Made by a program: the position numbers and the translations under genes | Shown here: positions 2,811 to 37,393 of the stretch, piece by piece | Layout of the letters: every line of letters starts with the position of its first letter | Numbering within the stretch: the first letter of the stretch is position 1 | From: a bacterium | GTDB taxonomy: Bacteria; Patescibacteriota; Minisyncoccia; 1-14-0-10-42-19 | Direction of reading: 5' to 3' | NCBI GenBank assembly: GCA_030690215.1 | Contig: JAUYHD010000029.1 | Span: 14,568 to 78,567 of the forward strand | DNA: 64,000 bases | The notes under the pieces: generated by a model | The model's database searches: none | What the model saw: only the letters and a program-made list of their open reading frames with translations | Told to the model about the DNA's origin: nothing

Positions 2811-2902
2811 AATTTTATGGTATTTTAATGGAATTATTTGTCAACAAATTCTCTGCATAAGCTGTGGATAACACTTAAAAACCCCTTTATTCCAACAAAA
2901 AA

Positions 2903-2945
2903 GCCGGCACTTTTGACAAAATACCGGCTTATTTTTTAATAATTT
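2903..2945 (-). terminator. rho-independent terminator downstream of 2979..3512 gene
   Basis: stem aagccgg/ccggctt followed by U-run on minus strand. Confidence 0.5.
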
Positions 2946-2978
2946 TTGCATACACATACAGACACGCACAAAAATATC

Positions 2979-3512
2979 TTAATAAACAAATGGGAGCAAC
3001 CTATACGGAGTTTTCTTGGTGAACATAGCCCATTCTCCAGGAAAAGCGTTTTGTAAAACTTTTTCCTCCTTTCGTACTTGGTAGATAAAAGCAAGAACGC
3101 TGAATATATTAAGAAAGAAAAACGGGCTAAAAAACACTAGCTCTATACCGCACCCCACAAAAAGAGTCCCCGTGTAGATGGGATTTCTTACGAAACGATA
3201 TACCCCTCGTACAATAAGACGATTTGGCGCCTCCATAACAGCCGCGGCCCGATAATTTTCGGCCAACAATAAACGAGAATAACTTGCGATAAGCACTCCC
3301 GCAAGAAAAAGCGCTACTCCTGCGCACGATGCCCACAAAGGAACATGCTTTGACACCCCGAACCCAACGAACAGTTGTAAGCAGAAAAATAACACAACGC
3401 CTCCGTCAAGAATCCATGTTCGTATGTTGTTTGTATGTTTTTCAATCGCAAAATAAAGCATCCATTTAACAGAAAAGTATACTGCCAGCCCCGCGATAAG
3501 AATTATCTGCAT
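2979..3512 (-). CDS. isoprenylcysteine carboxyl methyltransferase (ICMT/PEMT) family membrane protein
   Basis: multi-TM, RNPIYTG motif region (VRGVYRFVRNPIYTGTLF) characteristic of ICMT/PEMT family. Confidence 0.6.
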   Translation of the reverse strand: MQIILIAGLAVYFSVKWMLYFAIEKHTNNIRTWILDGGVVLFFCLQLFVGFGVSKHVPLWASCAGVALFLAGVLIASYSRLLLAENYRAAAVMEAPNRLIVRGVYRFVRNPIYTGTLFVGCGIELVFFSPFFFLNIFSVLAFIYQVRKEEKVLQNAFPGEWAMFTKKTPYRLLPFVY

Positions 3513-5032: not shown

Positions 5033-5722
5033 AAGGCTGTTATCTTGGCTGCAGGCGAAGGAACCCGCATGCGGCCGCTCACCAACGACACGCCAAAACC
5101 CATGCTTTTTGTTTCAGGAAAGCCGCTTCTTCTGCATATGCTGGACTCTCTCCCTGAAGAAATAAATGAAATCATTCTTGTTACCGGTTATCTTGAAGAA
5201 AAGATCAAAGCATATTTTGGAGAACAATTCGGGAGATTCCGCATCCGTTACATAAAGCAGAACGAAAAAAAAGGCACGGGCGACGCGCTATTTCTGTGCA
5301 AGCCGTTTTTCGCAAAAAACGAGCGTTTTCTCGTAATGTACGCTGACGACCTTCATTCAAAAAAAGCGATAGAAGAAGTTATAAAACACCCCTTAGCCAT
5401 ACTTGTAAAAGAAGTTGAAAACCCTCGAGCATTTGGCGTGATTACAACTGATGAAAACGGACATATCCGCGAATTTGTAGAGAAGCCCGAAGTCCCGCCC
5501 TCCAACCTCGTATCAATAGGAGTGCAGTTGCTTGACGAGCGAATTTTTTCATACCCGCTGGAAAAACACGCAAACGGGGAATATTATTTAGTAGACGCGG
5601 TGGCGCACATGGCTCGCGACTACAAAATAAAAACGATACATACTGATTTTTGGATCCCTATAGGATACCCGGAAGATCTCAAAAAAGCGGAAGATTACTT
5701 CAATCAAAAAAAGTCCGCCTAA
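5030..5722 (+). CDS. sugar-phosphate nucleotidyltransferase (G1P thymidylyl/uridylyltransferase-like)
   Basis: MKAVILAAGEGTRMRPLT N-terminal NTP-transferase signature; 230 aa. Confidence 0.8.
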   Translation: MKAVILAAGEGTRMRPLTNDTPKPMLFVSGKPLLLHMLDSLPEEINEIILVTGYLEEKIKAYFGEQFGRFRIRYIKQNEKKGTGDALFLCKPFFAKNERFLVMYADDLHSKKAIEEVIKHPLAILVKEVENPRAFGVITTDENGHIREFVEKPEVPPSNLVSIGVQLLDERIFSYPLEKHANGEYYLVDAVAHMARDYKIKTIHTDFWIPIGYPEDLKKAEDYFNQKKSA

Positions 5723-5788
5723 TCGGCGAGACTTATTGCCCGCCTAGTCGGCGAGGCTTTCAGAAGAATGGCCCGCCTAGTCGGCGAG
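5715..5788. repeat. three tandem copies of 16-17 bp hairpin unit CCGCCTARTCGGCGAG between convergent genes
   Basis: copies at 5715-5730, 5739-5755, 5772-5788 with 8 and 16 bp spacers. Confidence 0.7.
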
Positions 5789-5819
5789 GATTGATGAGAA
5801 ATCCCCGTTAAAAGGCTTT

Positions 5820-8456
5820 TTATAGAACAATATTTACAAGACGTTTTGGAATTACAATTATTTTTTTCGGCGGACTGCCTTTCAGCAATTCTTGTATGTG
5901 CGGGCGCGAGAGCGCCTGCTTTTCCATTTCTTCTTTTGATACGTCTATCGGCGCTTGAAACTTATCGCGCATCTTTCCATTGATCTGGACTACCAACTCA
6001 AATGTTTCTTCTTTTATTTTTTCTTGGTCAAACGAAGGCCACAAAGACACATGGATTGATTTTTTTTCTCCAAGCATTTCCCATAATTCTTCGGCGAGAA
6101 AGGGGGCGAAAGGCGCGAGCAATTGCAAAAATATTTTTAAATCGTTATGAGTTATGAGCAATGAGTTACTCTCAAATTCTCGCAATAAAATCATTAACTG
6201 CGATATTGCGGTATTATAATTCAGCGACTCTATATCTTCCGTCACCTTTTTAATTGATTGATGTAATATTTTTTCAATTTTGTTTCGTCCCCCTGATTCC
6301 TGATTCTTAATTCCTAATTCCTGTCCCAGTTTCCATACTCGTTCCAAAAACCGCGTTATTCCTTTAATACCATCGTCCCGAAAATCCCCTCCTTGTTCAA
6401 ACGGCCCCAAAAACATGAGATACATACGGAGCGCATCGGCGCCATATGCCTTGATATATATGTCGGGGTTTACAACATTACCGCGCGACTTGGACATTTT
6501 TGCGCCATCTTTTATTAAGAGGCCGTGTGCCCGGAATTGTGCAAACGGTTCATTAAAACCAACCAATCCCCAATCGTAAAATACTTTCGCAAGAAAACGA
6601 GTATATAAGAGATGAAGCACTGCATGTTCCGCTCCCCCGATATACATATGCACCGGCAACCACTTCGCCATCATTTCTTTAAATGATGAATTTTTAATTT
6701 TTCCGCCCGAGGCGGATCCGCCTTTGGCGGACAATTTCTCCCGACGTAAAGTCGGGATCCCGACTTCATTATTTAAAGATATAAATGGTACGTCGGGACA
6801 ATTTTCAAATTTCATTAAATACCCAATATAGTACCATGCGGAATCTAAGAAGGTGTCCGATACATCGGTTTCTCGGCGCGCTTTTTGCCCGCATTTCGGG
6901 CAGTCGATTTCGTAAAACTTTTTTACCGCTGCAAGAGGCGACGTAGTGCTTCCCGTGGGCTTAAACTCTTTTACATACGGCAAAACAACCGGTAAATCTT
7001 TTTCAGGAACCGAAAACCAGCCGGGATTTTCTAATTCCCCTTTGTTATATTCCTCTTTGTCCTCAATTCTTAATTCCATATTCTTAATTCTCTGAGCGCA
7101 GTTTTCGCAGAAAACGAGCGGTATTGGAGGCCCCCAATATCGCTGACGGCTGATTAACCAATCGCGAAGACGATAAGTCGTTGTTCTTTTTCCTCCTACT
7201 TTTTTGGCAATTTCCCATTTTGCCTTCTCCGATTCCATGCCATTAAATACATCCGAAGCAACTAAATGACCCTTCCCTGTATACGCCTCATCCAATATAG
7301 GGCATGTTTTTGCGGGGTAATGCGGGCATACAACCATAATCATTGGGAGATTATATTTCTTTGCAAACTCAAAATCTCTTGAGTCGTGCGCAGGGACTGC
7401 CATAATAGCACCCGTTCCCACCCCGCCTAGCACATAATCGGCAACCCAGATTGGGATTTCTTCATTATTTGCAGGATTGATTGCCATCACGCCTTCCAAT
7501 TGCACCCCTGTCTTGTCTTTATTATCGGTAATTCTTTCTTCTTCAGTCTTACTTTTTGTTTTCTCTATATACGCGCTAATTTCTTCTTTATTCCTGATTC
7601 TTGATTCTAACTTCTTAAGTAATTCGTGTTCTGGCGCAAGAACCATGTATGTCGCGCCAAACAATGTGTCGGGTCTTGTCGTAAAAACCCTGATACTTGA
7701 TTCAAAATTCTTAATTCTAAATTCTATTTCTGCGCCTTCACTCTCGCCTATCCAATTTTTCTGCGCGATTTTTACTTTCTCAGACCAATCAATATTCTTC
7801 AAATCATCCAACAAGCGTTTTGTATAATTCGTAATTTTGAAAAACCACTGCTCAAGTTCTTTTTTTATTACGATGCTGTCGCATCGTTCACATTTTCCTT
7901 GAATCACCTGCTCATCGGAAAGAACCGTTTTACACCCGGGGCACCAATTTACTTTTGCTTTTTTCCGGTAAGCCAACCCCCTTTTAAACATCTGCACAAA
8001 AATCCACTGAGTCCAACGGTAGTATTCAGGATCATATGTTTCGAGCTTTTCGTTCCACGCAAAACCATTGCCAATCATTCGGAGCTGGCTATAAAAATTC
8101 TTTGCGCTTTTTTCTGCAAGCTTCATCGGATGCGCCCCGATTTTGAGCGCGTAATTTTCCGAATGAATGCCAAATCCATCGAGTCCTATCGGCTCAAGTA
8201 CATCATATCCCTCCATCCGCTTTTTGCGACCATAAATATCAGCGCCTACAAATGCGTACATATTACCCACATGCAAACCTTCCGCCGACGGATACGGGAA
8301 CATCATGAGGTTATAAAATGGCCGCCTATGGCGAGCCTCGCTTGCGGCGGGCTTTTTTGCTCCGCCGCCTGGCGGATTTAAGTCGGGCTCATATAGCCCG
8401 TCGTCTTGCCATTTTTTCGTCCACTTTTTTTCTATCTGTTTAGGATTATATCTCAT
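5820..8456 (-). CDS. leuS: leucine--tRNA ligase
   Basis: class I aaRS HMGH-like (PYPSAEGLHVGN), KMSKS (KMSKSRGN), WLPVHMYIGGAEHAVLHLLY LeuRS hallmark; 878 aa. Confidence 0.95.
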   Translation of the reverse strand: MRYNPKQIEKKWTKKWQDDGLYEPDLNPPGGGAKKPAASEARHRRPFYNLMMFPYPSAEGLHVGNMYAFVGADIYGRKKRMEGYDVLEPIGLDGFGIHSENYALKIGAHPMKLAEKSAKNFYSQLRMIGNGFAWNEKLETYDPEYYRWTQWIFVQMFKRGLAYRKKAKVNWCPGCKTVLSDEQVIQGKCERCDSIVIKKELEQWFFKITNYTKRLLDDLKNIDWSEKVKIAQKNWIGESEGAEIEFRIKNFESSIRVFTTRPDTLFGATYMVLAPEHELLKKLESRIRNKEEISAYIEKTKSKTEEERITDNKDKTGVQLEGVMAINPANNEEIPIWVADYVLGGVGTGAIMAVPAHDSRDFEFAKKYNLPMIMVVCPHYPAKTCPILDEAYTGKGHLVASDVFNGMESEKAKWEIAKKVGGKRTTTYRLRDWLISRQRYWGPPIPLVFCENCAQRIKNMELRIEDKEEYNKGELENPGWFSVPEKDLPVVLPYVKEFKPTGSTTSPLAAVKKFYEIDCPKCGQKARRETDVSDTFLDSAWYYIGYLMKFENCPDVPFISLNNEVGIPTLRREKLSAKGGSASGGKIKNSSFKEMMAKWLPVHMYIGGAEHAVLHLLYTRFLAKVFYDWGLVGFNEPFAQFRAHGLLIKDGAKMSKSRGNVVNPDIYIKAYGADALRMYLMFLGPFEQGGDFRDDGIKGITRFLERVWKLGQELGIKNQESGGRNKIEKILHQSIKKVTEDIESLNYNTAISQLMILLREFESNSLLITHNDLKIFLQLLAPFAPFLAEELWEMLGEKKSIHVSLWPSFDQEKIKEETFELVVQINGKMRDKFQAPIDVSKEEMEKQALSRPHIQELLKGSPPKKIIVIPKRLVNIVL
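6703..6798. repeat. composite GC-rich palindromic repeat (two element types) lying in-frame inside leuS
   Basis: 6703-6730 ccgcccgaggcggatccgcctttggcgg (1 mismatch to 23777-23804); 6739-6798 ~85% identical (reverse complement) to 45048-45096 intergenic element. Confidence 0.75.
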
Positions 8457-14830: not shown

Positions 14831-16681
14831 ATGGTACATAAACGCCCCGCAAACACTATAGCTCTTATCTTGCTTGCGCTATTCTTCGTTCTCATGCTTT
14901 TTTCGGCACTTCCGGAATCGGCAATCATGGACGAACTCGCCCACATCCCTGCATCCTACTCGTATGTAGCGAAACAGGATTATCGTCTCAACCCCGAACA
15001 TCCTCCGCTTGCAAAAGATCTTGCGGGCATCCCGCTTCTTTTTCTCAACCTTAATTTTCCAATCGATGTCTCCGCGTGGACTACCGATATAAACGGACAA
15101 TGGACAATGGGGTCTATCTTTTTATATGAGGCAGAAAATAATCCTGACTCTATTCTTTTTTGGGCGCGTTTCCCGCTCATGCTTTTAGCGCTTCTTTTCG
15201 GGTGGCTTTTGTATCGCTGGGCATCAGGCGCGTATGGGGGAAAGGTCGGGCTTCTTTCGTTATTCTTTTTTACGACATCGCCAACTATTATCGCGCATGC
15301 GCGCTATGTGACAACCGATCTTGCGGCGGCCTTTGCGTTCTTTATAGGGCTCGCCTCTTTTTTTACCTATCTTCTCTCTCCCTCCAAAAAAACGCTTGCT
15401 CTTGCGGGTATCGCATTCGGTATTGCGCAACTTCTTAAATTTTCGCTTATTCTTCTCATACCCATATATGTTGTCTTGGGAACACTATGGGTGTTCTTGT
15501 TCCATCTTGATCATATGCGCGCATTGCCCTCCTTCTCAAAACGACTTTTTCATTTTCTACACCACGAAATAAAACTCATTGGCAATCTTGTTCTCATTGG
15601 TCTCATCGGCGTAATCATCATATATGCTGTATACGCATTCCATGTTTGGAATTATCCCGAAGACATGCAAATTCGAGACATGACATATAACTTAGAAACC
15701 GTGCGCTTCCAGCCTATCGCGGAGACCCTCATCACTCTCTCCGACTTCCCCGTGCTTCGCCCGCTTACGCAATACGCGCACGGTCTTTTAATGGTTATTA
15801 ACCGAGGCACACACGGAAACACTACATACTTTTTAGGAGAGGTTACCAATAACGGGTGGTTCCATTATTTCCCAACAGCATATCTTCTTAAAGAACAGCT
15901 TGCTCTACACATACTTACGCTTTTAGCCATCATTCTTTTTCTTACAGCAATCGTCAGAAGTCATGAAAAAACAATCTTCTCTCTTCTTGAGTGGATGCGG
16001 GACAATTTCGTGATCACCGGCAGCATATTTTTTATTGTTGTATATTGGGCTAGCTCTGTCGCAAGCCCGCTTAACATAGGGGTGCGCCATGTTTTACCTA
16101 CATTCCCGTTTATTTTTCTCATCATATCCCGTGAAATTATCCGCTGGACGCATCACGTCACGTTTACCGATCCCCGAACGCTTAAAGAATGGCTCATCTC
16201 TCTCTACGAACTTGCGATAAAGCGCATCCCTAAATTCATTTTTATTGCAGCCACACTTGTCTGGATGGGGATTACGACACTTCTTGCGTTCCCCCATTAT
16301 CTTCCTTACTACAATGTACTTGGCGGCGGGACAGAGCATGGTTATCAATATATTACCGATTCAAATTATGATTGGGGGCAAGATTTAAAACGCCTCAAAA
16401 CATTTGTTGACGAAAATAGTATTGAGCATATCCGGCTTAATTACTTCGGCGGCGGATCGCCCCGCTATTATTTGGGGAATACATACGAAGAATGGTATTC
16501 GGCGAAAGGAGAGCCTGAAGAAGGATGGTTTGCGGTATCCGCAACGCTCCGGCAAGGATCGTGGGGAACGCCCATCCGCGGATGGGAAACAAAACCCGAA
16601 GACAGCTATAGCTGGCTTCGCGATAAAGAACCGGTCGCGCGTGCGGGGTATTCAATATTTATCTATAATCTTGCCCCGTAG
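14831..16681 (+). CDS. GT-C fold glycosyltransferase (phospholipid carrier-dependent, PMT_2-like)
   Basis: polytopic; ALPESAIMDELAHIPASYSY / HPPLAKDLAGIPL loop motifs typical of GT-C mannosyltransferase-like enzymes. Confidence 0.7.
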   Translation: MVHKRPANTIALILLALFFVLMLFSALPESAIMDELAHIPASYSYVAKQDYRLNPEHPPLAKDLAGIPLLFLNLNFPIDVSAWTTDINGQWTMGSIFLYEAENNPDSILFWARFPLMLLALLFGWLLYRWASGAYGGKVGLLSLFFFTTSPTIIAHARYVTTDLAAAFAFFIGLASFFTYLLSPSKKTLALAGIAFGIAQLLKFSLILLIPIYVVLGTLWVFLFHLDHMRALPSFSKRLFHFLHHEIKLIGNLVLIGLIGVIIIYAVYAFHVWNYPEDMQIRDMTYNLETVRFQPIAETLITLSDFPVLRPLTQYAHGLLMVINRGTHGNTTYFLGEVTNNGWFHYFPTAYLLKEQLALHILTLLAIILFLTAIVRSHEKTIFSLLEWMRDNFVITGSIFFIVVYWASSVASPLNIGVRHVLPTFPFIFLIISREIIRWTHHVTFTDPRTLKEWLISLYELAIKRIPKFIFIAATLVWMGITTLLAFPHYLPYYNVLGGGTEHGYQYITDSNYDWGQDLKRLKTFVDENSIEHIRLNYFGGGSPRYYLGNTYEEWYSAKGEPEEGWFAVSATLRQGSWGTPIRGWETKPEDSYSWLRDKEPVARAGYSIFIYNLAP

Positions 16682-16872
16682 AGCAATATCGCATAATAAG
16701 CTATGCGTTCGCCGCTGGAGGTCAAAAACTATCCCATGTTCTTACTTTTTTGCAAATGGTATTTTGTATAAGAGCTTATAAGAACACGCTATGCGATATT
16801 GTCTTACGGGGTTTGACAAAAACTAAGAAAAGACATACCCTATAAAAAGAATGTTCCTAAAAGGAGTCAATA

Positions 16873-19867: not shown

Positions 19868-21128
19868 TAGCGCCCCCAAGCACCTGCCTGCCGGCAGGCA
19901 GGTTTCCCTCCTCCATTGAATAGAAAACTATTGATTGGCCGGGTGTTACTGCGCGTTGCGGATCTTTAAATTGAATTAAGAATTTTGAATTAGGAATTAA
20001 GGTTTCTTCCGTTATTCTTGATTCATAATTCATAATTCGTGCTACTTGTAGCGGTTGGCGATATCGTATTCGCACCTCACATTCTAAAGGCAATTCCGGA
20101 ACAACTCCGGATATCCAATGCGCGTCGCGAACGCGCAATTCCGTTTTAAATAATGCCTCTTCATATGGACCTTCGGCAACCGTAATCGTATTGATCGAAA
20201 CATCTTTATCGGTTACATAATATGGGATGCCCCCACCCACCCCTATGCCGTGACGCTGGCCGATGGTGTAAAATTCTGCCCCTTCATGCGTGCCTATTTC
20301 TTTTCCGCCGGTAGTCAGAATTTTCCCGGAACGCTTCGGCAATACTTCCTGCATAAAAGAACGGAAATCGATATTACCAACAAAACAAAGTCCCTGGGAA
20401 TCTTTTTTTGCATGTGTCGGAAGTCCAAACTTTTTTGCCATAGCGCGGACCTCTCTTTTTTCATATCCCCCAATCGGAAATAATGCGTGCTTCAATTGGT
20501 CTTGCGTTAGCGTCCATAAAAAATAACTTTGATCTTTGTTTATATCTCTCGCAACATGTAGCATATAGCGTGCGGCAGATTTCTCATTTTGAGTTTTGAA
20601 CTTTGCGCTTTGAGCTTTCCTTACATAATGTCCAGTTGCAATATAGTCTGCCCCCAAACTACGCGCCTTATTTAAAAAAACTCCGAATTTAATTTCTTTG
20701 TTGCACATGACATCTGGATTTGGCGTAAGCCCCGCTTTATATTCACGCACCATATAATCAAACACTGATGCGCGGTATTCTTTTTCGAGATCAAATACAT
20801 AAAATGGAATATGCAATTTTTCTGCGACTCGTCGGGCATCCTCCGCGTCTTGTGCGGATGTACAATACGCCCCCTCTGACCAGCACTTCATATAGGCGCC
20901 GATTACTTCGTATTCCCCACTTTGAACCAACAAAGCAGCCGCAACGGACGAATCAACCCCGCCGGACATCGCTACGAAGACCTTTTTACCCCGAGTAGTA
21001 TTGAGGGGCTTGCCCCGAGTGCTATCGGGGGGCTTGCCCCGAGCCCCGCCAGAAGCGGGATCGAGGGGCTTGCCCCGAGCCCCGCCAGAAGCGGGATCGA
21101 GGGGTTTGTTGTTTTGATTAATTGACAT
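19857..21128 (-). CDS. mnmA: tRNA-specific 2-thiouridylase MnmA with Pro/Gly-rich repeat N-terminal extension
   Basis: PP-loop KVFVAMSGGVDSSVAA, catalytic Cys regions; N-terminal ~47 aa encoded by tandem repeats. Confidence 0.88.
   Translation of the reverse strand: MSINQNNKPLDPASGGARGKPLDPASGGARGKPPDSTRGKPLNTTRGKKVFVAMSGGVDSSVAAALLVQSGEYEVIGAYMKCWSEGAYCTSAQDAEDARRVAEKLHIPFYVFDLEKEYRASVFDYMVREYKAGLTPNPDVMCNKEIKFGVFLNKARSLGADYIATGHYVRKAQSAKFKTQNEKSAARYMLHVARDINKDQSYFLWTLTQDQLKHALFPIGGYEKREVRAMAKKFGLPTHAKKDSQGLCFVGNIDFRSFMQEVLPKRSGKILTTGGKEIGTHEGAEFYTIGQRHGIGVGGGIPYYVTDKDVSINTITVAEGPYEEALFKTELRVRDAHWISGVVPELPLECEVRIRYRQPLQVARIMNYESRITEETLIPNSKFLIQFKDPQRAVTPGQSIVFYSMEEGNLPAGRQVLGGAIIS
20990..21112. 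repeat. GC-rich tandem repeat, 36-bp unit x2 full plus partial copies, in-frame in mnmA 5' end
   Basis: gccccgccagaagcgggatcgaggggcttgccccga at 21041-21076 and 21077-21112; partial copies 21001-21040. Confidence 0.85.
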
Positions 21129-23732: not shown

Positions 23733-23776
23733 GGGTTCACCCTCGCAAGAGACGACCCAGCTTCGCCAAAGCTTTT

Positions 23777-23804
23777 CCGCCCAAGGCGGATCCGCCTTTG
23801 GCGG
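23777..23804. repeat. GC-rich palindromic element ccgcccaaggcggatccgcctttggcgg
   Basis: 27/28 identical to 6703-6730 inside leuS. Confidence 0.8.
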
Positions 23805-23845
23805 AAGCGAGGTAAGGGCTCACCATGGGTGGTTGCGGGCAGATA

Positions 23846-30100: not shown

Positions 30101-30120
30101 TTATAAACTATTCGCACAAA

Positions 30121-30192
30121 TAAAAAAAGGCGTCCTGTGTGTTGACCCCGAAATGCATGTGTTGCATAACGGGGCAAGCAGGACGCCTGTGT
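30121..30192 (-). terminator. terminator hairpin with conserved 42-nt interior, downstream of pepF-1
   Basis: stem GGCGTCCTG/CAGGACGCC + 8 U on minus strand; interior identical to 32162-32203. Confidence 0.7.
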
Positions 30193-32020: not shown

Positions 32021-32150
32021 GTATAAAACCTCCTTGTAAAATAGCTTATTTGAATATGATAGTATCATAAAAAATAAATTTTGTATATAATATCTACCCT
32101 TCTGTGTTGCTCACCCTCCCAAATTGTGTATTAAAAAATAGGCGCTCAAA

Positions 32151-32222
32151 ACAAAAAAAGACGTCCTGTGTGTTGACCCCGAAATGCATGTGTTGCATAA
32201 CGAAGGCACAGAGGACGTCTCA
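32151..32222 (-). terminator. terminator hairpin with conserved 42-nt interior, downstream of pepF-2
   Basis: stem GACGTCCTCTGTG/CACACAGGACGTC with compensatory changes relative to copy 1, + U-run. Confidence 0.7.
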
Positions 32223-34514: not shown

Positions 34515-35741
34515 TTAATTGCAATTTTCAATCAATACGGCAACCGCTCCTCCTCCACCATGGCATGTGGTCGCAATGCCGTATCGTCCATTCATGTCTT
34601 GTAGCGCGTAGCAAAGATTTACTAAAATTTTTGCGCCGGAAGCACCCAGTGGATGGCCGTTTGCGATAGCGCCGCCCCATACATTCACTTTTTCAGGGGA
34701 GAGTCCCAATTCTTTTATCGCAAAAAGGGGTGCGGGAGGAAATGCTTCGTTTATCTCAAAAAGGTCGATATCTTGCAGGCGCAATTTTGCTTTTTCTACA
34801 ACACGCGTTATCGCAAGAGTTGGCGCGCGCAAGAATTCGCGCGGTTCGAGCCCCGCGTGACCAAATGCCACTATGCGCGCCATGGGCTTTTTAATACACC
34901 CCACTGCTTGTTTCTCCGATATGAGTATGAGGGCAGATGCACCGTCCGATAACTGTGAGGAATTGGCAACCGTCAACCGTCCATTGTCGCAAAACACGGG
35001 CGGACGGCTCCGTATCTTATCTCTGTCCGGCTCACGCCATCCTTCATCAAATTGAGGAGAATTTTTTATATGCAGAAGCTGACGAGATATCTTTTCTCGC
35101 GCCGAACCTGCGCGAGAATAACTTTCAAACGCATACGCATCCAACACATCCCTCGATATTTCGTGGTCTCGAATAATACTTTCGGCAAGTTTTCCCATAA
35201 CGGGGAAGCCGGGGTAGAGCGCGTCGCACAATCCTTCCGACTGCAAACTATCCACTGCGTATTGCCCCATCAGAGGATCAGCGTTTTTTTCTTGCAGCGC
35301 TGTCTGTAAATACGAGAACGTATAGGCAAACGTAAGCGGATCATATACCCCATGTAGACGCCTCATCAAAAACGGCGCGTTGCTCATTGACTCAATACCG
35401 CCGACAATAACCGCATCCATGTCCCCCGTGGCTATTTTAAGGTACCCATACTCGGCAGAAAGAAAACTTGAAGAACATACCTTGCTAAAATTTGACGCAT
35501 CGGTAGCATGCCTCAATCCCGCGCGAATCTTTATTTGATTTGCCGGATGCTGGCCAAGCCCCGAAGAAACTACGTTCCCGATATATACGCCTTCTATGTC
35601 GCTACGGCTGATCAAAACGTAATCAATCAGCTTTTCTATGAGTTGGGCCCCAAGATCCACAGCCGAACTATCTTTATACGCACCGCCAAACCGTCCGGTA
35701 GGAATGCGTTTTCCTTCAAGAATATATACAGGCTTCATGCC
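34515..35741 (-). CDS. acetyl-CoA C-acetyltransferase (thiolase)
   Basis: thiolase motifs (NVHGGAIAIGHPLGASG, CxGGG at C-terminus); start MKPVYILEG after GGAGG (ORF track extends to 35837). Confidence 0.9.
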   Translation of the reverse strand, partial: GMKPVYILEGKRIPTGRFGGAYKDSSAVDLGAQLIEKLIDYVLISRSDIEGVYIGNVVSSGLGQHPANQIKIRAGLRHATDASNFSKVCSSSFLSAEYGYLKIATGDMDAVIVGGIESMSNAPFLMRRLHGVYDPLTFAYTFSYLQTALQEKNADPLMGQYAVDSLQSEGLCDALYPGFPVMGKLAESIIRDHEISRDVLDAYAFESYSRAGSAREKISRQLLHIKNSPQFDEGWREPDRDKIRSRPPVFCDNGRLTVANSSQLSDGASALILISEKQAVGCIKKPMARIVAFGHAGLEPREFLRAPTLAITRVVEKAKLRLQDIDLFEINEAFPPAPLFAIKELGLSPEKVNVWGGAIANGHPLGASGAKILVNLCYALQDMNGRYGIATTCHGGGGAVAVLIENCN

Positions 35742-35801
35742 AAACCTCCTTATGCAATTTTTTACTATAACAAACAACAAATACCCCCGCAGTATACACC
35801 A

Positions 35802-35828
35802 AAACACCCCTTTATAAAAGGGGTGTTT
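35802..35828. terminator. perfect palindromic hairpin aaacaccccttta-taaaggggtgttt (possible terminator of GIY-YIG gene)
   Basis: 11-bp stem; weak U tract. Confidence 0.4.
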
Positions 35829-35917
35829 ATGTTCCAAGATTTTTTAAAGCCAGCTTACCCCCGCAAAATAGACAAGAGCAAGAACAATAGCAAGGATAAG
35901 GAACGCCAAAAGAGCAA

Positions 35918-36238
35918 GCATACCCCGTTAGGCTAAATCAAATGAAGAAGACCAATACCCCCGCAGGCGATTCCTCAAAAATCTGCGTCCCGCAGTAGAT
36001 TTGAGATAACGCTCACGCTGTATGGCGTCTTCTTGATTTGTGCAAGCCTCAAGATAAATGATAATAAATGGTAGTCTCATTTTTGTTGAAAAGTTATATC
36101 CCCGTGTATGCTCTTCTAATCGTTTTTTAATATTCTTTGTACATCCTACATACATATTGCCATCCTTTTTGCTCCGCAATACGTATGTCCAGAAGAGCAT
36201 ATTTGATTTTGCCATACGGGGCATACCCCGTTAGGCTA
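35918..36238 (-). mobile_element. 303-bp GIY-YIG nuclease cassette bracketed by 18-bp direct repeats gcataccccgttaggcta
   Basis: DR at 35918-35935 (contains stop) and 36221-36238 (contains start); period 303 bp. Confidence 0.55.
35928..36224 (-). CDS. GIY-YIG nuclease family protein (YhbQ/UPF0213-like)
   Basis: FWTYVLRSKKDGNMYVGCTKNIKKRLEEH ... RERYLK matches GIY-YIG core. Confidence 0.8.
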   Translation of the reverse strand: MPRMAKSNMLFWTYVLRSKKDGNMYVGCTKNIKKRLEEHTRGYNFSTKMRLPFIIIYLEACTNQEDAIQRERYLKSTAGRRFLRNRLRGYWSSSFDLA

Positions 36239-36580
36239 CATCGAAAAACGTCTTCCTTGCCCCGTAAGACAATATCACATGGTACGTCATGCATTCGCCG
36301 TTCATTCACCATAGCATAGCTGTACTCCCCATTTCTTCTGACAGCGACGCTCTAATAAATGACGTACAAGAATGCGTTATGTGATATTGTCAAACGGGGC
36401 TTGCAAAATCGCAGAATATATTTCGATGGTTACCTTTTATTGTACTTTTACTAATAATACTTCGTATCACCTCCGTAAGACGTAAAGATTTTGCTTTTCC
36501 GCCGGAGGCGGATCTGCTCGCCTCGTCTTCGCCTCGGCGAGGCGGGCCTTCGGCATGACGATGTTGCCATACGGGGCATA
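36211..36580. repeat. 355-bp non-coding segment bracketed by 15-bp direct repeats gccatacggggcata; contains repeat-family sequences
   Basis: DR at 36211-36225 and 36566-36580; interior holds 36367-36414 (~80% to 16781-16830) and GC-rich palindrome 36488-36550. Confidence 0.5.
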
Positions 36581-37393
36581 TTATCTTATTTCGTATATCA
36601 GCGTTACTGTCACCATGATATCCTGTGACCCCGGTTCAATAGAAGGCGCGGGAGCCGTAGCACCGCCTATTCCTGCGTCACGAACAGACTCAAGCCCAAC
36701 AACACCCTTATAAAAGGGCGTAAACCCTCCTTCAGAAAGCGAAAGAAGGCGCCCAATCCTAAATCCTCCAGCACGCGCGGTCGCTTTTGCCTTTTCTTTT
36801 GCTTGTTCAATTGCTTTCTCGCGCGCCTCTTGCTCTACCATCGCAGGATCATCAATCGTAAACCAAAGCTGGGATACGGAATTTGCGCCATTTTCTACCA
36901 CACCGGAAAGCAGTTCGCCTACTATGCCAAATTTATCTTCCCGAGCTTTTACCAACACGGTTTGGCTTATCGTGTATCCTACTATTTCAGCAGGAGGGCA
37001 TGGCTCTATTGATATAACGTCACCCAATGACACGGGACGCGAACAATTATAGTATTGATATCGCGGAGAAACAGTATATCCCTGTGTAGTAATATCTTCT
37101 TTTGCTATCCCTTTTGATTTTACAAAATCAATCGCGGCATTCGTGCTTTCGGTATTTTTTTGCTGAAGAGAAGCAACATTGGTACCGCCTTCAGTAAGCA
37201 CGGTGAAAGAAAATTGCGCGACATCGGGTACTGCAACAACCTTCCCTTCGCCGGATACCGAGAAACTCCGGGCAAAAGACGGGTCAATTGAATTTTTTAA
37301 TGCGCCGACAAGCCCAACGACTCCGTACGAAAATGCGAGGAGCGCTACAATAATAACGACATAAAGATACTTTTTCCCTATAGGTGTGTCCAT
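36581..37393 (-). CDS. SIMPL/DUF541-like secreted or membrane-anchored protein
   Basis: N-terminal TM, size and composition typical of SIMPL domain proteins. Confidence 0.5.
   Translation of the reverse strand: MDTPIGKKYLYVVIIVALLAFSYGVVGLVGALKNSIDPSFARSFSVSGEGKVVAVPDVAQFSFTVLTEGGTNVASLQQKNTESTNAAIDFVKSKGIAKEDITTQGYTVSPRYQYYNCSRPVSLGDVISIEPCPPAEIVGYTISQTVLVKAREDKFGIVGELLSGVVENGANSVSQLWFTIDDPAMVEQEAREKAIEQAKEKAKATARAGGFRIGRLLSLSEGGFTPFYKGVVGLESVRDAGIGGATAPAPSIEPGSQDIMVTVTLIYEIR

What the first reader, a model, noticed from the sequence alone, without database searches (positions are those of the whole stretch)
35918..36580. GIY-YIG nuclease gene as an exact 303-bp cassette bounded by 18-bp direct repeats, adjacent to a second repeat-bounded 355-bp non-coding insertion at a hairpin target
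The 18-mer gcataccccgttaggcta occurs at 35918-35935, where it contains the stop codon of the GIY-YIG ORF. It occurs again at 36221-36238, where it contains the ATG. The ORF therefore fills the interval exactly. Immediately overlapping is a 15-mer, gccatacggggcata, at 36211-36225, which recurs at 36566-36580 abutting the stop of the SIMPL gene. That pair brackets a 355-bp non-coding segment. The segment carries a copy of the 48-bp repeat also found at 16781-16830 and a GC-rich palindrome of the ggcggatc family. Removing both duplications reconstructs a site ...gccatacggggcataccccgttaggcta..., itself a small hairpin (acgggg/ccccgt). This suggests two successive insertions with 15- and 18-bp target duplications at a hairpin target, which is unusual for a YhbQ-type GIY-YIG gene that has no DNA-binding domain. 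Alternatively it is a collapsed tandem array.
Basis: seen in the sequence. Interest (0 to 1): 0.66.

Follow-up and report, generated by a model that had tools for sequence, protein, structure and literature searches.

The report
Tiny GIY-YIG mobile element at start codons
The repeats mark two tiny mobile DNA elements sitting side by side, one carrying only a ~98-residue GIY-YIG nuclease gene and one non-coding, inserted exactly at a host gene's start codon; this may be the smallest self-contained kind of bacterial transposon, common in Patescibacteria.

Summary
The 18-mer and 15-mer are real and exact. They are not target duplications. They are the matching ends of two adjacent elements that share ~20-nt imperfect terminal inverted repeats (core CCCCGTnnGnCnAnATC, 8 copies in the window vs 0.26 expected), each flanked by a 4-bp duplication, TATG.

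Layout on the minus strand: SIMPL stop – TATG – [351-bp non-coding element, itself holding a nested 140-bp element with CTTG duplication] – TATG – [299-bp GIY-YIG element] – TATG = start of a conserved 25-aa host ORF.

A syntenic relative has the empty site with a single TATG and no hairpin. About 20 related elements in other Patescibacteria sit in unrelated gene contexts with the same build. The right ATG is the downstream host gene's start codon. The left ATG usually opens the nuclease ORF. Arms co-vary, dN/dS is 0.07–0.18, and deleted and nested copies exist.

The closest precedent is the Ssn family of repeat-flanked ssDNA nucleases (2025). This family is only ~28% identical to SsnA and lacks Ssn's hairpin motif. 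That the nuclease itself moves the element is inferred, not shown.

The parts
36581..37393 (-). Upstream host gene, SIMPL/DUF541 family. Its stop codon (36581-36583) is followed immediately by the first TATG.
   Evidence: ORF list; Pfam PF04402, E 3.6e-45; synteny with L026-L028.
36577..36580 (-). TATG copy 1: left flank of the non-coding element.
   Evidence: Sequence; termini table.
36226..36576 (-). Outer non-coding element, 351 bp and MITE-like. Left arm 36557-36576 (CCCCGTATGGCAACATCGTC on the minus strand); right arm 36226-36245. The arms match those of the GIY-YIG element and keep the same left/right asymmetry; the interior is unrelated.
36256..36403 (.). Nested 140-bp inverted-repeat element (36260-36399) with a perfect 4-bp duplication, CTTG, at 36256-36259 and 36400-36403. 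It folds as a long hairpin in single-stranded form.
   Evidence: I17; z = -5.3.
36495..36527 (.). GC-rich palindromic stretch inside the outer element; weak member (70%) of repeat family D5 (6699, 23773). Role unknown.
36222..36225 (-). TATG copy 2, shared between the two elements. Its ATG (36222-36224) opens the longest GIY-YIG reading frame.
35923..36221 (-). GIY-YIG element, 299 bp. Left arm 36202-36221 (CCCCGTATGGCAAAATCAAA on the minus strand); right arm 35923-35942 (CCCCGTTAGGCTAAATCAAA on the plus strand). Arms match at 17 of 20 positions.
   Evidence: the same build is seen in about 20 related loci.
35928..36224 (-). GIY-YIG nuclease ORF, 98 aa from the flank ATG (an alternative inner ATG lies at 36200). 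The first 8 codons (MPRMAKSN) are encoded by the TATG and the left arm; the stop codon lies inside the right arm, 6 nt before the host ATG.
   Evidence: Pfam PF01541, E 1.5e-16; invariant Y14, Y25, R35, H39, E59, E71; model and fold matches to UPF0213 and Slx1; stop-to-ATG gap.
35919..35922 (-). TATG copy 3. Its ATG (35919-35921) is the start codon of the host 25-aa ORF. It corresponds to the single TATG of the empty site.
35844..35921 (-). Host gene at the insertion point: a conserved 25-aa hydrophobic ORF, MLALLAFLILAIVLALVYFAGVSWL.
   Evidence: Conserved in L026 (MLAIISFLILAILLGILYFAGVHWF) and L025.
35807..35822 (-). Intrinsic-terminator-like hairpin ending the SIMPL/25-aa-ORF transcription unit; conserved in the empty-site relative.
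16674..16811 (.). Second copy of the small non-coding subfamily (138 bp; arms CCCCGTAGAGCAATATCGCA and CCCCGTAAGACAATATCGCA; flanks CTTG/TTTG). It sits at the 3' end of a PMT_2-family gene, whose stop codon TAG lies in the left arm.
   Evidence: I19; z = -5.15.

Best explanation
Window 35919-36580 holds a tandem pair of very small transposable elements in a Patescibacteria (candidate phyla radiation) genome. Each is bounded by ~20-nt imperfect terminal inverted repeats beginning CCCCGT and flanked by a 4-bp target duplication, TATG. One element (299 bp) carries a single gene, a ~98-aa stand-alone GIY-YIG nuclease of the Slx1/UPF0213-like lineage. The other (351 bp) is a non-coding derivative with the same ends and contains a third, nested 140-bp element.

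Both top-level elements landed in the same TATG, which holds the start codon of a conserved 25-aa host ORF just downstream of the SIMPL gene. Each insertion regenerates TATG on both sides, which explains the tandem arrangement and the small hairpin at the junction.

Shown: inverted-repeat ends, duplicated flanks, an empty site, unrelated insertion contexts, non-autonomous, deleted and nested copies, and purifying selection on the ORF and the arms.

Also shown is a 'start-codon capture' layout across the family. The right-hand ATG remains the host gene's start codon. The left-hand ATG, sitting behind the host's own translation signals, usually opens the nuclease ORF, whose first ~8 codons are the left arm. 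The nuclease stop codon lies 6-21 nt before the host ATG.

Inferred: the element borrows host transcription and translation, and the host gene is then translated by re-initiation or because the paired arms bring its ribosome-binding site next to its ATG. Also inferred (about 0.6): the GIY-YIG protein is the mobilising enzyme. By analogy with Ssn nucleases, it would recognise the stem formed when the two arms pair in single-stranded DNA and cut a few nucleotides outside the stem on each strand. That would give the 4-nt stagger and let host ligation or repair complete excision and insertion.
For: Ends and duplications: the motif occurs 8 times in the window vs 0.26 expected, always as inverted pairs. 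In the termini table, 15 of 19 coding or deleted copies have TATG/TATG. Non-coding copies show CAAG/CAAG, TATG/TATG and, read directly, TACA/TACA.

Empty site: L026-L028 share the gene order VKOR-SfLAP-Trypsin-SIMPL-thiolase-PepM3. Their gap is 171 bp and reads stop-GCGG-TATG-CTTGCG, containing the 25-aa ORF and terminator, against TATG[351]TATG[299]TATG in the window. Of the two 86%-identical relatives, L025 is empty and L029 is occupied.

Mobility: homologues lie in unrelated contexts. Copies are 90.6-97.6% identical while their flanks are at about 50%. An identical internal-deletion derivative sits before mreB and before a pilB-like gene. One non-coding copy is inserted inside a GIY-YIG gene. 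Non-coding copies carry arms like those of the resident coding copy in the window, L004, L015 and L019.

Arms co-vary between lineages (CCCCGT/ACGGGG, CCCAGT/ACTGGG, CCCGGT/ACCGGG). They are also far more conserved than synonymous sites.

Start-codon capture: the right ATG opens an ORF of at least 167 aa in 15 of 15 closed cases, vs 16% for random ATGs. Pfam domains of LexA, IspG, MreB, an amino-acid kinase and an MFS transporter begin 2-16 residues from that ATG; DUF72 in L030. The left ATG is in frame in 13 of 14 intact copies. 104 of 117 database homologues start MP[S/R/G], and 61 of 113 have no other Met before the core. The stop-to-ATG gap is 6-21 nt in 12 of 12.

Protein function: dN/dS is 0.07-0.18 and catalytic residues are invariant. 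No promoter signal above chance lies inside the element.

Mechanistic analogy: Ssn nucleases are ~94-aa single-domain GIY-YIG enzymes that bind a hairpin repeat in ssDNA and cut just upstream of it (PMC11893778). The arms close a long stem in ssDNA, z = -3.7 to -5.7.
Against: No biochemical or genetic evidence that this nuclease binds or cuts its arms. GIY-YIG enzymes are hydrolytic and no strand-transfer activity is known for them, while inverted-repeat ends plus a target duplication are the classic signature of DDE transposases. Only ±3-10 kb around each copy was visible, so an unlinked transposase with the same ends cannot be excluded. One abundant copy (P0156) occupies a single conserved context in all 24 contigs read, so at least some copies are long-term residents. 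In the window, the nuclease element now follows the non-coding element rather than host translation signals, so its own expression is unclear. The duplication could be 3 bp in a minority of cases (L007, L010, L017). The structure model has only moderate confidence (pLDDT 72.6).
Confidence: 0.7

Rival explanations
1. The inverted-repeat elements are ordinary MITE-type elements moved by an unlinked conventional (for example DDE) transposase elsewhere in the genome. The GIY-YIG gene is cargo, perhaps beneficial to the host or addictive.
For: Inverted-repeat ends plus a 4-bp duplication are typical of DDE insertion sequences. GIY-YIG nucleases only hydrolyse DNA (established knowledge). Non-coding copies outnumber coding ones in the window, 3 to 1.
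Against: No transposase gene appears in any of about 25 loci. The GIY-YIG gene is always the sole ORF, in a fixed orientation, and its start and stop overlap the arms. The arms diverge between lineages together with the protein, while dN/dS stays at 0.07-0.18. The family has thousands of members that nearly all begin with the arm-encoded MP[S/R/G].
Confidence: 0.15
2. A domesticated Ssn-like system: the nuclease and its repeats now serve a host function, such as controlling recombination or uptake of single-stranded DNA, and the copies seen are relics that no longer move.
For: The Ssn precedent, where the authors propose domestication of NTS-ssnA-NTS. P0156 sits in one context across many samples. 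There is strong purifying selection on the ORF.
Against: Presence/absence differs among relatives whose SIMPL proteins are 86% identical to the window's. Copies 97.6% identical sit at unrelated sites. There are nested insertions and frameshifted, deleted or interrupted copies typical of transposon turnover. No SRM hairpin motif is present.
Confidence: 0.1
3. A free-standing GIY-YIG homing endonuclease gene that spreads by cutting a cognate empty allele and being copied in by repair.
For: GIY-YIG homing endonucleases are classic selfish genes placed between host genes. There is a weak NCBIfam hit to the group I intron endonuclease model, 30.5 bits against a cut-off of 56.
Against: There is no DNA-binding domain, since the protein is only ~98 aa. 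Insertions are at many non-homologous loci. Inverted-repeat ends, target duplications and non-coding derivatives are not features of homing.
Confidence: 0.03
4. One reading: two insertions that produced 15- and 18-bp target duplications at a hairpin target. Its alternative was a collapsed tandem array.
For: The exact 15-mer and 18-mer direct repeats.
Against: The empty site has a single TATG and no hairpin. The repeats are element termini shared with copies elsewhere. The units share only their ends.
Confidence: 0.02

Closest known systems
Ssn nucleases with their NTS/SRM repeats (Chenal et al. 2025, Nat Commun, PMC11893778; CDD cd10448)
   Same: A single-domain GIY-YIG protein of ~94-100 aa with no DNA-binding domain. 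The gene is flanked on both sides by a cognate repeat that also occurs elsewhere in the genome. The repeat forms a hairpin in ssDNA. Protein and repeat co-diverge. The authors themselves noted the resemblance to an insertion sequence.
   Different: Only 27-28% identity to a genuine NTS-flanked SsnA, limited to the catalytic core and with a different C-terminal region. No SRM motif lies near any copy. Here each arm is not a hairpin by itself; the two arms pair with each other across the element. This family shows target duplications, empty sites, nested and deleted copies and insertion at start codons, none of which is reported for Ssn. The hosts are Patescibacteria rather than mainly Pseudomonadati.
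Bacterial insertion sequences and their MITEs (for example IS5- or IS630-type elements; Correia elements of Neisseria)
   Same: Terminal inverted repeats, a short target duplication, non-autonomous derivatives sharing the ends, nesting, and assembly breaks at copies.
   Different: The only gene is a ~95-aa GIY-YIG nuclease, not a DDE, HUH, serine or tyrosine enzyme. The coding element is ~300 bp, which from my own knowledge is less than half the size of the smallest known insertion sequences (about 0.7 kb). There is no own promoter or ribosome-binding site, and often no own start codon.
REPIN/RAYT and IS200/IS605 (Y1 HUH enzymes acting on ssDNA hairpins)
   Same: A small enzyme gene flanked by its cognate repeats. 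Non-coding inverted-repeat doublets are dispersed in the genome. A single-stranded hairpin is the likely substrate.
   Different: The enzyme fold is different (GIY-YIG, not HUH). Target duplications are present here, whereas IS200/IS605 makes none. The coding copies themselves sit at many loci.
UPF0213/YhbQ and Slx1 (stand-alone or RING-fused GIY-YIG structure-specific nucleases)
   Same: They are the nearest solved structures and folds: 1ZG2 at E 4.8e-7 by sequence and top Foldseek hit, followed by Slx1. They represent the minimal GIY-YIG domain.
   Different: Those genes are regarded as vertically inherited housekeeping or unknown-function genes (PMC1564403). No inverted-repeat ends or mobility have been described for them.
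Free-standing GIY-YIG homing endonucleases (I-TevI, phage T4 Seg proteins)
   Same: A selfish GIY-YIG gene lodged between host genes with minimal disruption.
   Different: Homing enzymes carry a separate DNA-binding domain, target one cognate allele, and have no terminal repeats, duplications or non-coding derivatives.

Membership tests
GIY-YIG nuclease superfamily (Pfam PF01541) | Match to the family profile above the curated cut-off | tested here: met
   60.9 bits against a cut-off of 22.6, E 1.5e-16, residues 11-80.
GIY-YIG nuclease superfamily (Pfam PF01541) | Conserved catalytic residues (the two Tyr of GIY and YIG, a central Arg, a Glu) | tested here: met
   Y14, Y25, G27, R35, H39, E59 and E71 are invariant across 12 diverged elements.
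GIY-YIG nuclease superfamily (Pfam PF01541) | The beta-beta-alpha-beta-alpha fold | tested here: met
   The model (pLDDT 72.6) has E11-18, E24-29, H32-42, E53-61, H64-75. Top Foldseek hits are UPF0213 1ZG2, then Slx1; UvrC and I-TevI domains appear lower.
Ssn family (cd10448, PMC11893778) | Single-domain GIY-YIG protein of about 94 aa | tested here: met
   85-102 aa with only the GIY-YIG domain.
Ssn family (cd10448, PMC11893778) | Assignment to CDD cd10448 (rpsblast score above 100) or clear homology to N. meningitidis SsnA | tested here: inconclusive
   No CDD tool was available. Against a genuine NTS-flanked gonococcal SsnA: 28% identity over 67 residues, with a pairwise E of 4e-10 that is not a database-level value; hhalign probability 94% for the core only. 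The family is equally distant from UPF0213.
Ssn family (cd10448, PMC11893778) | Gene flanked by SRM hairpin repeats (HGTCWY...RNCYNB) | tested here: not met
   The paper's pattern gives 0 hits near any of 18 loci and 1 unrelated hit in the window. Controls (NTS consensus, gonococcal locus with 7 hits) are positive.
Ssn family (cd10448, PMC11893778) | Site-specific cleavage of ssDNA only, next to the bound hairpin | not testable with these tools
   Needs purified protein and oligonucleotide assays.
Insertion sequence / autonomous DNA transposon | Defined ends (terminal inverted repeats) | tested here: met
   Arms of about 20 nt, matching at 11-19 of 20 positions without gaps (low values reflect 1-nt indels), in every copy.
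Insertion sequence / autonomous DNA transposon | Target-site duplication and a matching empty site | tested here: met
   4-bp duplications; empty sites in L026-L028 and L025.
Insertion sequence / autonomous DNA transposon | Copies at several unrelated loci | tested here: met
   Two loci lie in one MAG (L006 and L011).
Insertion sequence / autonomous DNA transposon | The encoded protein catalyses the element's own transposition | not testable with these tools
   Inferred only, from exclusive linkage, fixed layout, co-variation and purifying selection.
MITE (non-autonomous element) | Short, non-coding, ends shared with a coding partner, flanked by a duplication | tested here: met
   Window 36226-36576, 36260-36399 and 16674-16811; L004 4874-5012; L015 ~1800-1939; L019 1555-1741 and the nested copy at 2869-3000.
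REPIN/RAYT or IS200/IS605 | Y1 HUH transposase | tested here: not met
   The only ORF is a GIY-YIG domain.
GIY-YIG homing endonuclease | An additional DNA-binding domain and homing to one cognate allele | tested here: not met
   A 98-aa single domain; many non-homologous insertion loci. The NCBIfam intron-endonuclease hit is below its cut-off.

The most novel reading that the evidence does not exclude
These are autonomous DNA transposons of a new enzymatic class. A ~95-aa GIY-YIG nuclease with no other domain would mobilise its own ~300-bp element and its non-coding derivatives by cutting the stem formed by the paired ends. That would make them the smallest self-mobilising elements known. They would also be obligate 'start-codon parasites' that have dispensed with their own promoter, ribosome-binding site and often start codon, by inserting at host TATG start sites and duplicating the ATG.
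Probability: 0.5. Interest if true: 0.9.

Novelty: new variant of a known kind. Interest (0 to 1): 0.8.

Why it matters
If the nuclease is the mobilising enzyme, GIY-YIG joins the short list of protein folds that drive DNA transposition, and the lower size limit for an autonomous element drops to about 300 bp.

The start-codon capture layout is a distinctive way for a parasite to be expressed while leaving the host gene intact.

There are practical consequences too:
- Thousands of Patescibacteria genes labelled 'excinuclease ABC subunit C' or 'GIY-YIG nuclease family protein' would be re-read as transposon genes.
- Start codons of neighbouring host genes are easily mis-called. The annotated DUF72 start in L030-L039 shifts between 2793 and 2820.
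- Assemblies break at these repeats, since contigs L024 and L029 end inside an arm.

By analogy with Ssn enzymes, each lineage's protein and arm pair could be a source of new sequence- or structure-specific ssDNA nucleases.

Tried and rejected
- **Rfam:** scans at gathering threshold over the whole window and at E ≤ 1 over 35700-36700 gave no hits, so no described RNA family explains the repeats.
- **tRNA scan of the window:** none found.
- **Viral contigs:** no relatives.
- **Other GIY-YIG copies in the window:** tblastn found none, intact or degraded.
- **P0001 (96% identical protein):** not on record, so its locus could not be compared.
- **First related-loci attempt:** alignment A1 was too diverse to seed a scan.
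- **One identical protein at several sites:** tested with P0156. It is a single conserved context, so this gives no support for recent hopping of that copy.
- **Plasmid collection:** only ~35%-identical UPF0213-like genes.
- **Promoter scan:** nothing above chance inside the element.
- **SRM motif of the Ssn paper:** absent.
- **Literature:** searches on GIY-YIG combined with terminal inverted repeats, MITE, target site duplication, Patescibacteria, YhbQ, UPF0213 or insertion sequence found no description of this element. The library is incomplete, so this is not proof of absence.
- **Hairpin-target and 15/18-bp duplication model:** rejected on the empty site.
Full report
**1. Observation**

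The 18-mer GCATACCCCGTTAGGCTA occurs exactly twice in the window, at 35918-35935 and 36221-36238. The 15-mer GCCATACGGGGCATA also occurs exactly twice, at 36211-36225 and 36566-36580. Neither has further copies even when mismatches are allowed, and chance expectation is 0.01 and 0.11.

The minus-strand ORF 35928..36224 is a GIY-YIG protein (PF01541, E 1.5e-16). Its stop and start codons lie in the two 18-mer copies. The second 15-mer copy abuts the stop of the SIMPL gene 36581..37393.

**2. What the repeats really are**

Read on the minus strand, the 303-bp and 355-bp units share longer, imperfect ends. The two ends of each unit are inverted copies of one motif. CCCCGTNNGNCNANATC occurs 8 times in the window against 0.26 expected, always as inverted pairs:
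- 35923+/36221- brackets the GIY-YIG gene.
- 36226+/36576- brackets the non-coding segment.
- 36260+/36399- is a third element nested inside that segment.
- 16674+/16811- is a related 138-bp element 20 kb away, at the 3' end of a PMT_2-family gene.

Each element is flanked by a 4-nt direct repeat. This is TATG for the two large ones, which share the middle copy. It is CTTG/CTTG for the nested one and CTTG/TTTG for the distant one. The two large units share only their ends. The small 'hairpin' ACGGGG-TATG-CCCCGT is therefore the right arm of one element abutting the left arm of the next.

**3. Empty site**

The SIMPL protein's relatives include a fully syntenic locus, L026-L028 (70% identity, order VKOR-SfLAP-Trypsin-SIMPL-thiolase-PepM3). 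Its SIMPL-thiolase gap is 171 bp instead of about 840 bp. It reads ...GATAA GCGG TATG CTTGCGATT.... The ATG in that TATG starts a 25-aa hydrophobic ORF, MLAIISFLILAILLGILYFAGVHWF, followed by a terminator hairpin.

The window has the same ORF (MLALLAFLILAIVLALVYFAGVSWL, 35844..35921) and the same terminator. In the window, however, TATG[351 bp]TATG[299 bp]TATG lies between the SIMPL stop and that ORF.

Two relatives each have SIMPL proteins 86% identical to the window's. L025 is empty (TAATGCTTGCC). L029 is occupied (TAG-TATG-CCCCGTATGGC, where the contig ends).

So there were two insertions into one TATG that contains a host start codon. No hairpin target exists, and the duplication is 4 bp, not 15 or 18 bp.

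**4. The same element elsewhere**

Homologues of the nuclease (53-72% identity) were recovered from Patescibacteria MAGs and metagenomes: Niyogibacteria, Portnoybacteria, Saccharibacteria, Nealsonbacteria and others. They lie in unrelated gene contexts, yet every one has the same build:
- (T)ATG, then an arm starting CCC[C/A/G]GT.
- The gene.
- The inverted arm ending AC[G/T/C]GGG, then TATG.

Of the 19 coding or deleted copies, 15 have perfect TATG/TATG flanks.

The arm sequences differ between lineages but the two arms of each element change together. They are also far better conserved than synonymous sites. For L001 vs L002, pS is 0.54 with 0 of 20 changes in the non-coding right arm. For L015 vs L017, pS is 0.32 with identical arms.

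Copies at different sites are 90.6-97.6% identical while their flanks are at the ~50% level. Typical transposon debris is also present:
- A frameshifted copy (L011).
- A copy interrupted by a non-coding element with a TACA duplication (L019).
- An internally deleted 252-bp derivative found 97.6% identical before mreB (L021/L022) and before a pilB-like gene (L023). It comes from the same metagenome series as a full-length copy with identical arms (L015).
- Non-coding copies with arms like the resident coding copy, in L004 (tandem, as in the window), L015 and L019.

Contigs L024 and L029 end inside an arm, as expected for a repeat that breaks assemblies.

**5. Start-codon capture**

In every coding copy the ATG of the right-hand TATG opens a long ORF. 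This holds for 15 of 15 closed cases (at least 167 aa), against 16% for random ATGs in the same loci.

These are genuine host genes whose Pfam domains begin 2-16 residues from that ATG: LexA, IspG, MreB, an amino-acid kinase and an MFS transporter. ProRS-type synthetase, ClpB-like and PilB-like ATPases also start there, as does DUF72 in L030.

The left-hand ATG is in frame with the nuclease ORF in 13 of 14 intact copies. Its first eight codons are the left arm (MPRKAKSN, MPSNTTSS, MPSNKTSP and so on). Six of the 14 have only GTG, or nothing, before the catalytic core.

In the protein database the family has 5,799 clusters at E ≤ 1e-10. Among the top 117, 104 begin MP[S/R/G], which is ATG plus CCC[A/C/G]GT, and 61 of 113 have no other Met before the core.

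The nuclease stop codon lies 6-21 nt upstream of the host ATG in 12 of 12 copies. No promoter signal above chance lies inside the window's element.

Non-coding copies are not restricted to start codons. They also occur at gene 3' ends, in intergenic regions and nested in other copies.

My reading, which is inference: coding copies persist only where they can borrow host transcription and translation without silencing the host gene. The host gene would be translated by re-initiation. Alternatively, the paired arms could bring its ribosome-binding site next to its ATG; in the RNA fold of L001 the left AUG is buried in the stem base and the host AUG is free just 3' of it.

**6. The protein**

It is a minimal GIY-YIG domain with invariant Y14, Y25, R35, H39, E59 and E71. 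It is under strong purifying selection, with dN/dS of 0.07-0.18 between elements at different sites.

The nearest solved relatives are the UPF0213 proteins 1ZG2 and 1YWL, then Slx1. A moderate-confidence model (pLDDT 72.6) has the expected topology and retrieves the same structures. The 2006 survey of the superfamily treats such stand-alone prokaryotic Slx1-like proteins as vertically inherited (PMC1564403).

**7. Closest precedent**

Chenal et al. 2025 (PMC11893778) describe Ssn (cd10448). These are ~94-aa single-domain GIY-YIG nucleases that bind a hairpin repeat (NTS/SRM) in ssDNA only and cut a few nucleotides upstream. Their genes are flanked by the repeat on both sides in 42% of cases. 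The authors remark that NTS-ssnA-NTS looks like an insertion sequence and propose domestication.

I tested membership in three steps:
- The paper's SRM pattern gives no hit near any of 18 loci, while its positive controls match.
- I recovered a genuine gonococcal SsnA, 94 aa with seven NTS repeats within ±600 nt. The initial query sequence came from memory and served only as a lead.
- That SsnA is 27-28% identical to this family over the catalytic core only (hhalign probability 94%). This is no closer than UPF0213.

So the family works like Ssn in outline, as a small nuclease plus a cognate flanking repeat that forms a stem in ssDNA. It is not demonstrably a member, and it shows transposon hallmarks not reported for Ssn.

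**8. Mechanism and rivals**

Shown: a mobile element with inverted-repeat ends and 4-bp duplications, non-autonomous derivatives, and start-codon capture.

Inferred (about 0.6): the nuclease is the mobilising enzyme. It would recognise the stem formed by the paired arms and cut just outside it on each strand. That would yield the 4-nt stagger, a fixed orientation relative to the non-palindromic TATG, and regeneration of TATG on both sides, which explains tandem arrays.

Rivals and their approximate probabilities:
- An unlinked conventional transposase with the nuclease as cargo (0.15).
- A domesticated, no longer mobile Ssn-like system (0.1). The one-context copy P0156 fits this for some copies.
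- Homing (0.03).

**9. Verdict**

What is there is a compact and apparently undescribed family of GIY-YIG-encoding inverted-repeat elements and their non-coding derivatives. The family is widespread in Patescibacteria and inserts at host start codons. No description was found in ten literature searches, but the library is incomplete.

Noticed in passing
window 35844-35921 (-); L026 4826-4903; L025 ~2571-2613: A conserved, probably unannotated 25-aa hydrophobic ORF (MLALLAFLILAIVLALVYFAGVSWL) lies directly after the SIMPL gene and is followed by a terminator hairpin. It is conserved at the protein level in relatives whose SIMPL proteins are 70-86% identical.
   Followed up: partly
window 6699-6731, 23773-23805, 36495-36527; also 5710-5792 and 21000-21095: There are families of GC-rich palindromes and short tandem hairpins in an otherwise AT-rich genome (repeat families D3, D4, D5). 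Similar CAGCTG-type palindromes sit at the deletion junction and in the 3' part of the deleted derivative in L021/L023, and upstream of the gene in L018. They may be another class of tiny hairpin insertions.
   Followed up: no
L018 2860-3320: A more distant homologue (50% identity) lacks the CCCNGT arms. It sits between a partial, palindrome-interrupted copy of a tRNA 5' end and an intact tRNA-Gln gene (3247-3318), giving a ~20-nt direct repeat of the tRNA 5' end. This sister clade may use a different, tRNA-associated insertion mode.
   Followed up: partly
L024 2553-2592; L029 1433-1448: Short-read contigs carrying the same or a close SIMPL gene end inside the left arm of the element. These repeats appear to break Patescibacteria assemblies.
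   Followed up: partly
window 16679-16681; L004 4575-4577; L030 ~2509-2511: Upstream host genes (PMT_2-family, gatA, HD-domain) terminate at stop codons supplied by the left arm (CCCCGTAA/CCCCGTAG). The insertion therefore rewrites the last few codons of the upstream gene.
   Followed up: partly
window 30118-30171 and 32149-32202: A 54-nt direct repeat, 96% identical, flanks a ~2-kb segment next to the Peptidase_M3 gene (family D6).
   Followed up: no
L030-L039, gene after the GIY-YIG ORF: Gene callers disagree on the DUF72 start (2793 vs 2820). The ATG in the right-hand TATG (2820) gives the canonical N-terminus MANLFIGTSGW. This is an example of annotation errors caused by the element.
   Followed up: partly
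window 34515-35837 (-): The longest thiolase ORF starts at a TTG and runs through the terminator region. The real start is probably the ATG at 35737-35739 (MKPVYIL), preceded by AAGGAGG.
   Followed up: no
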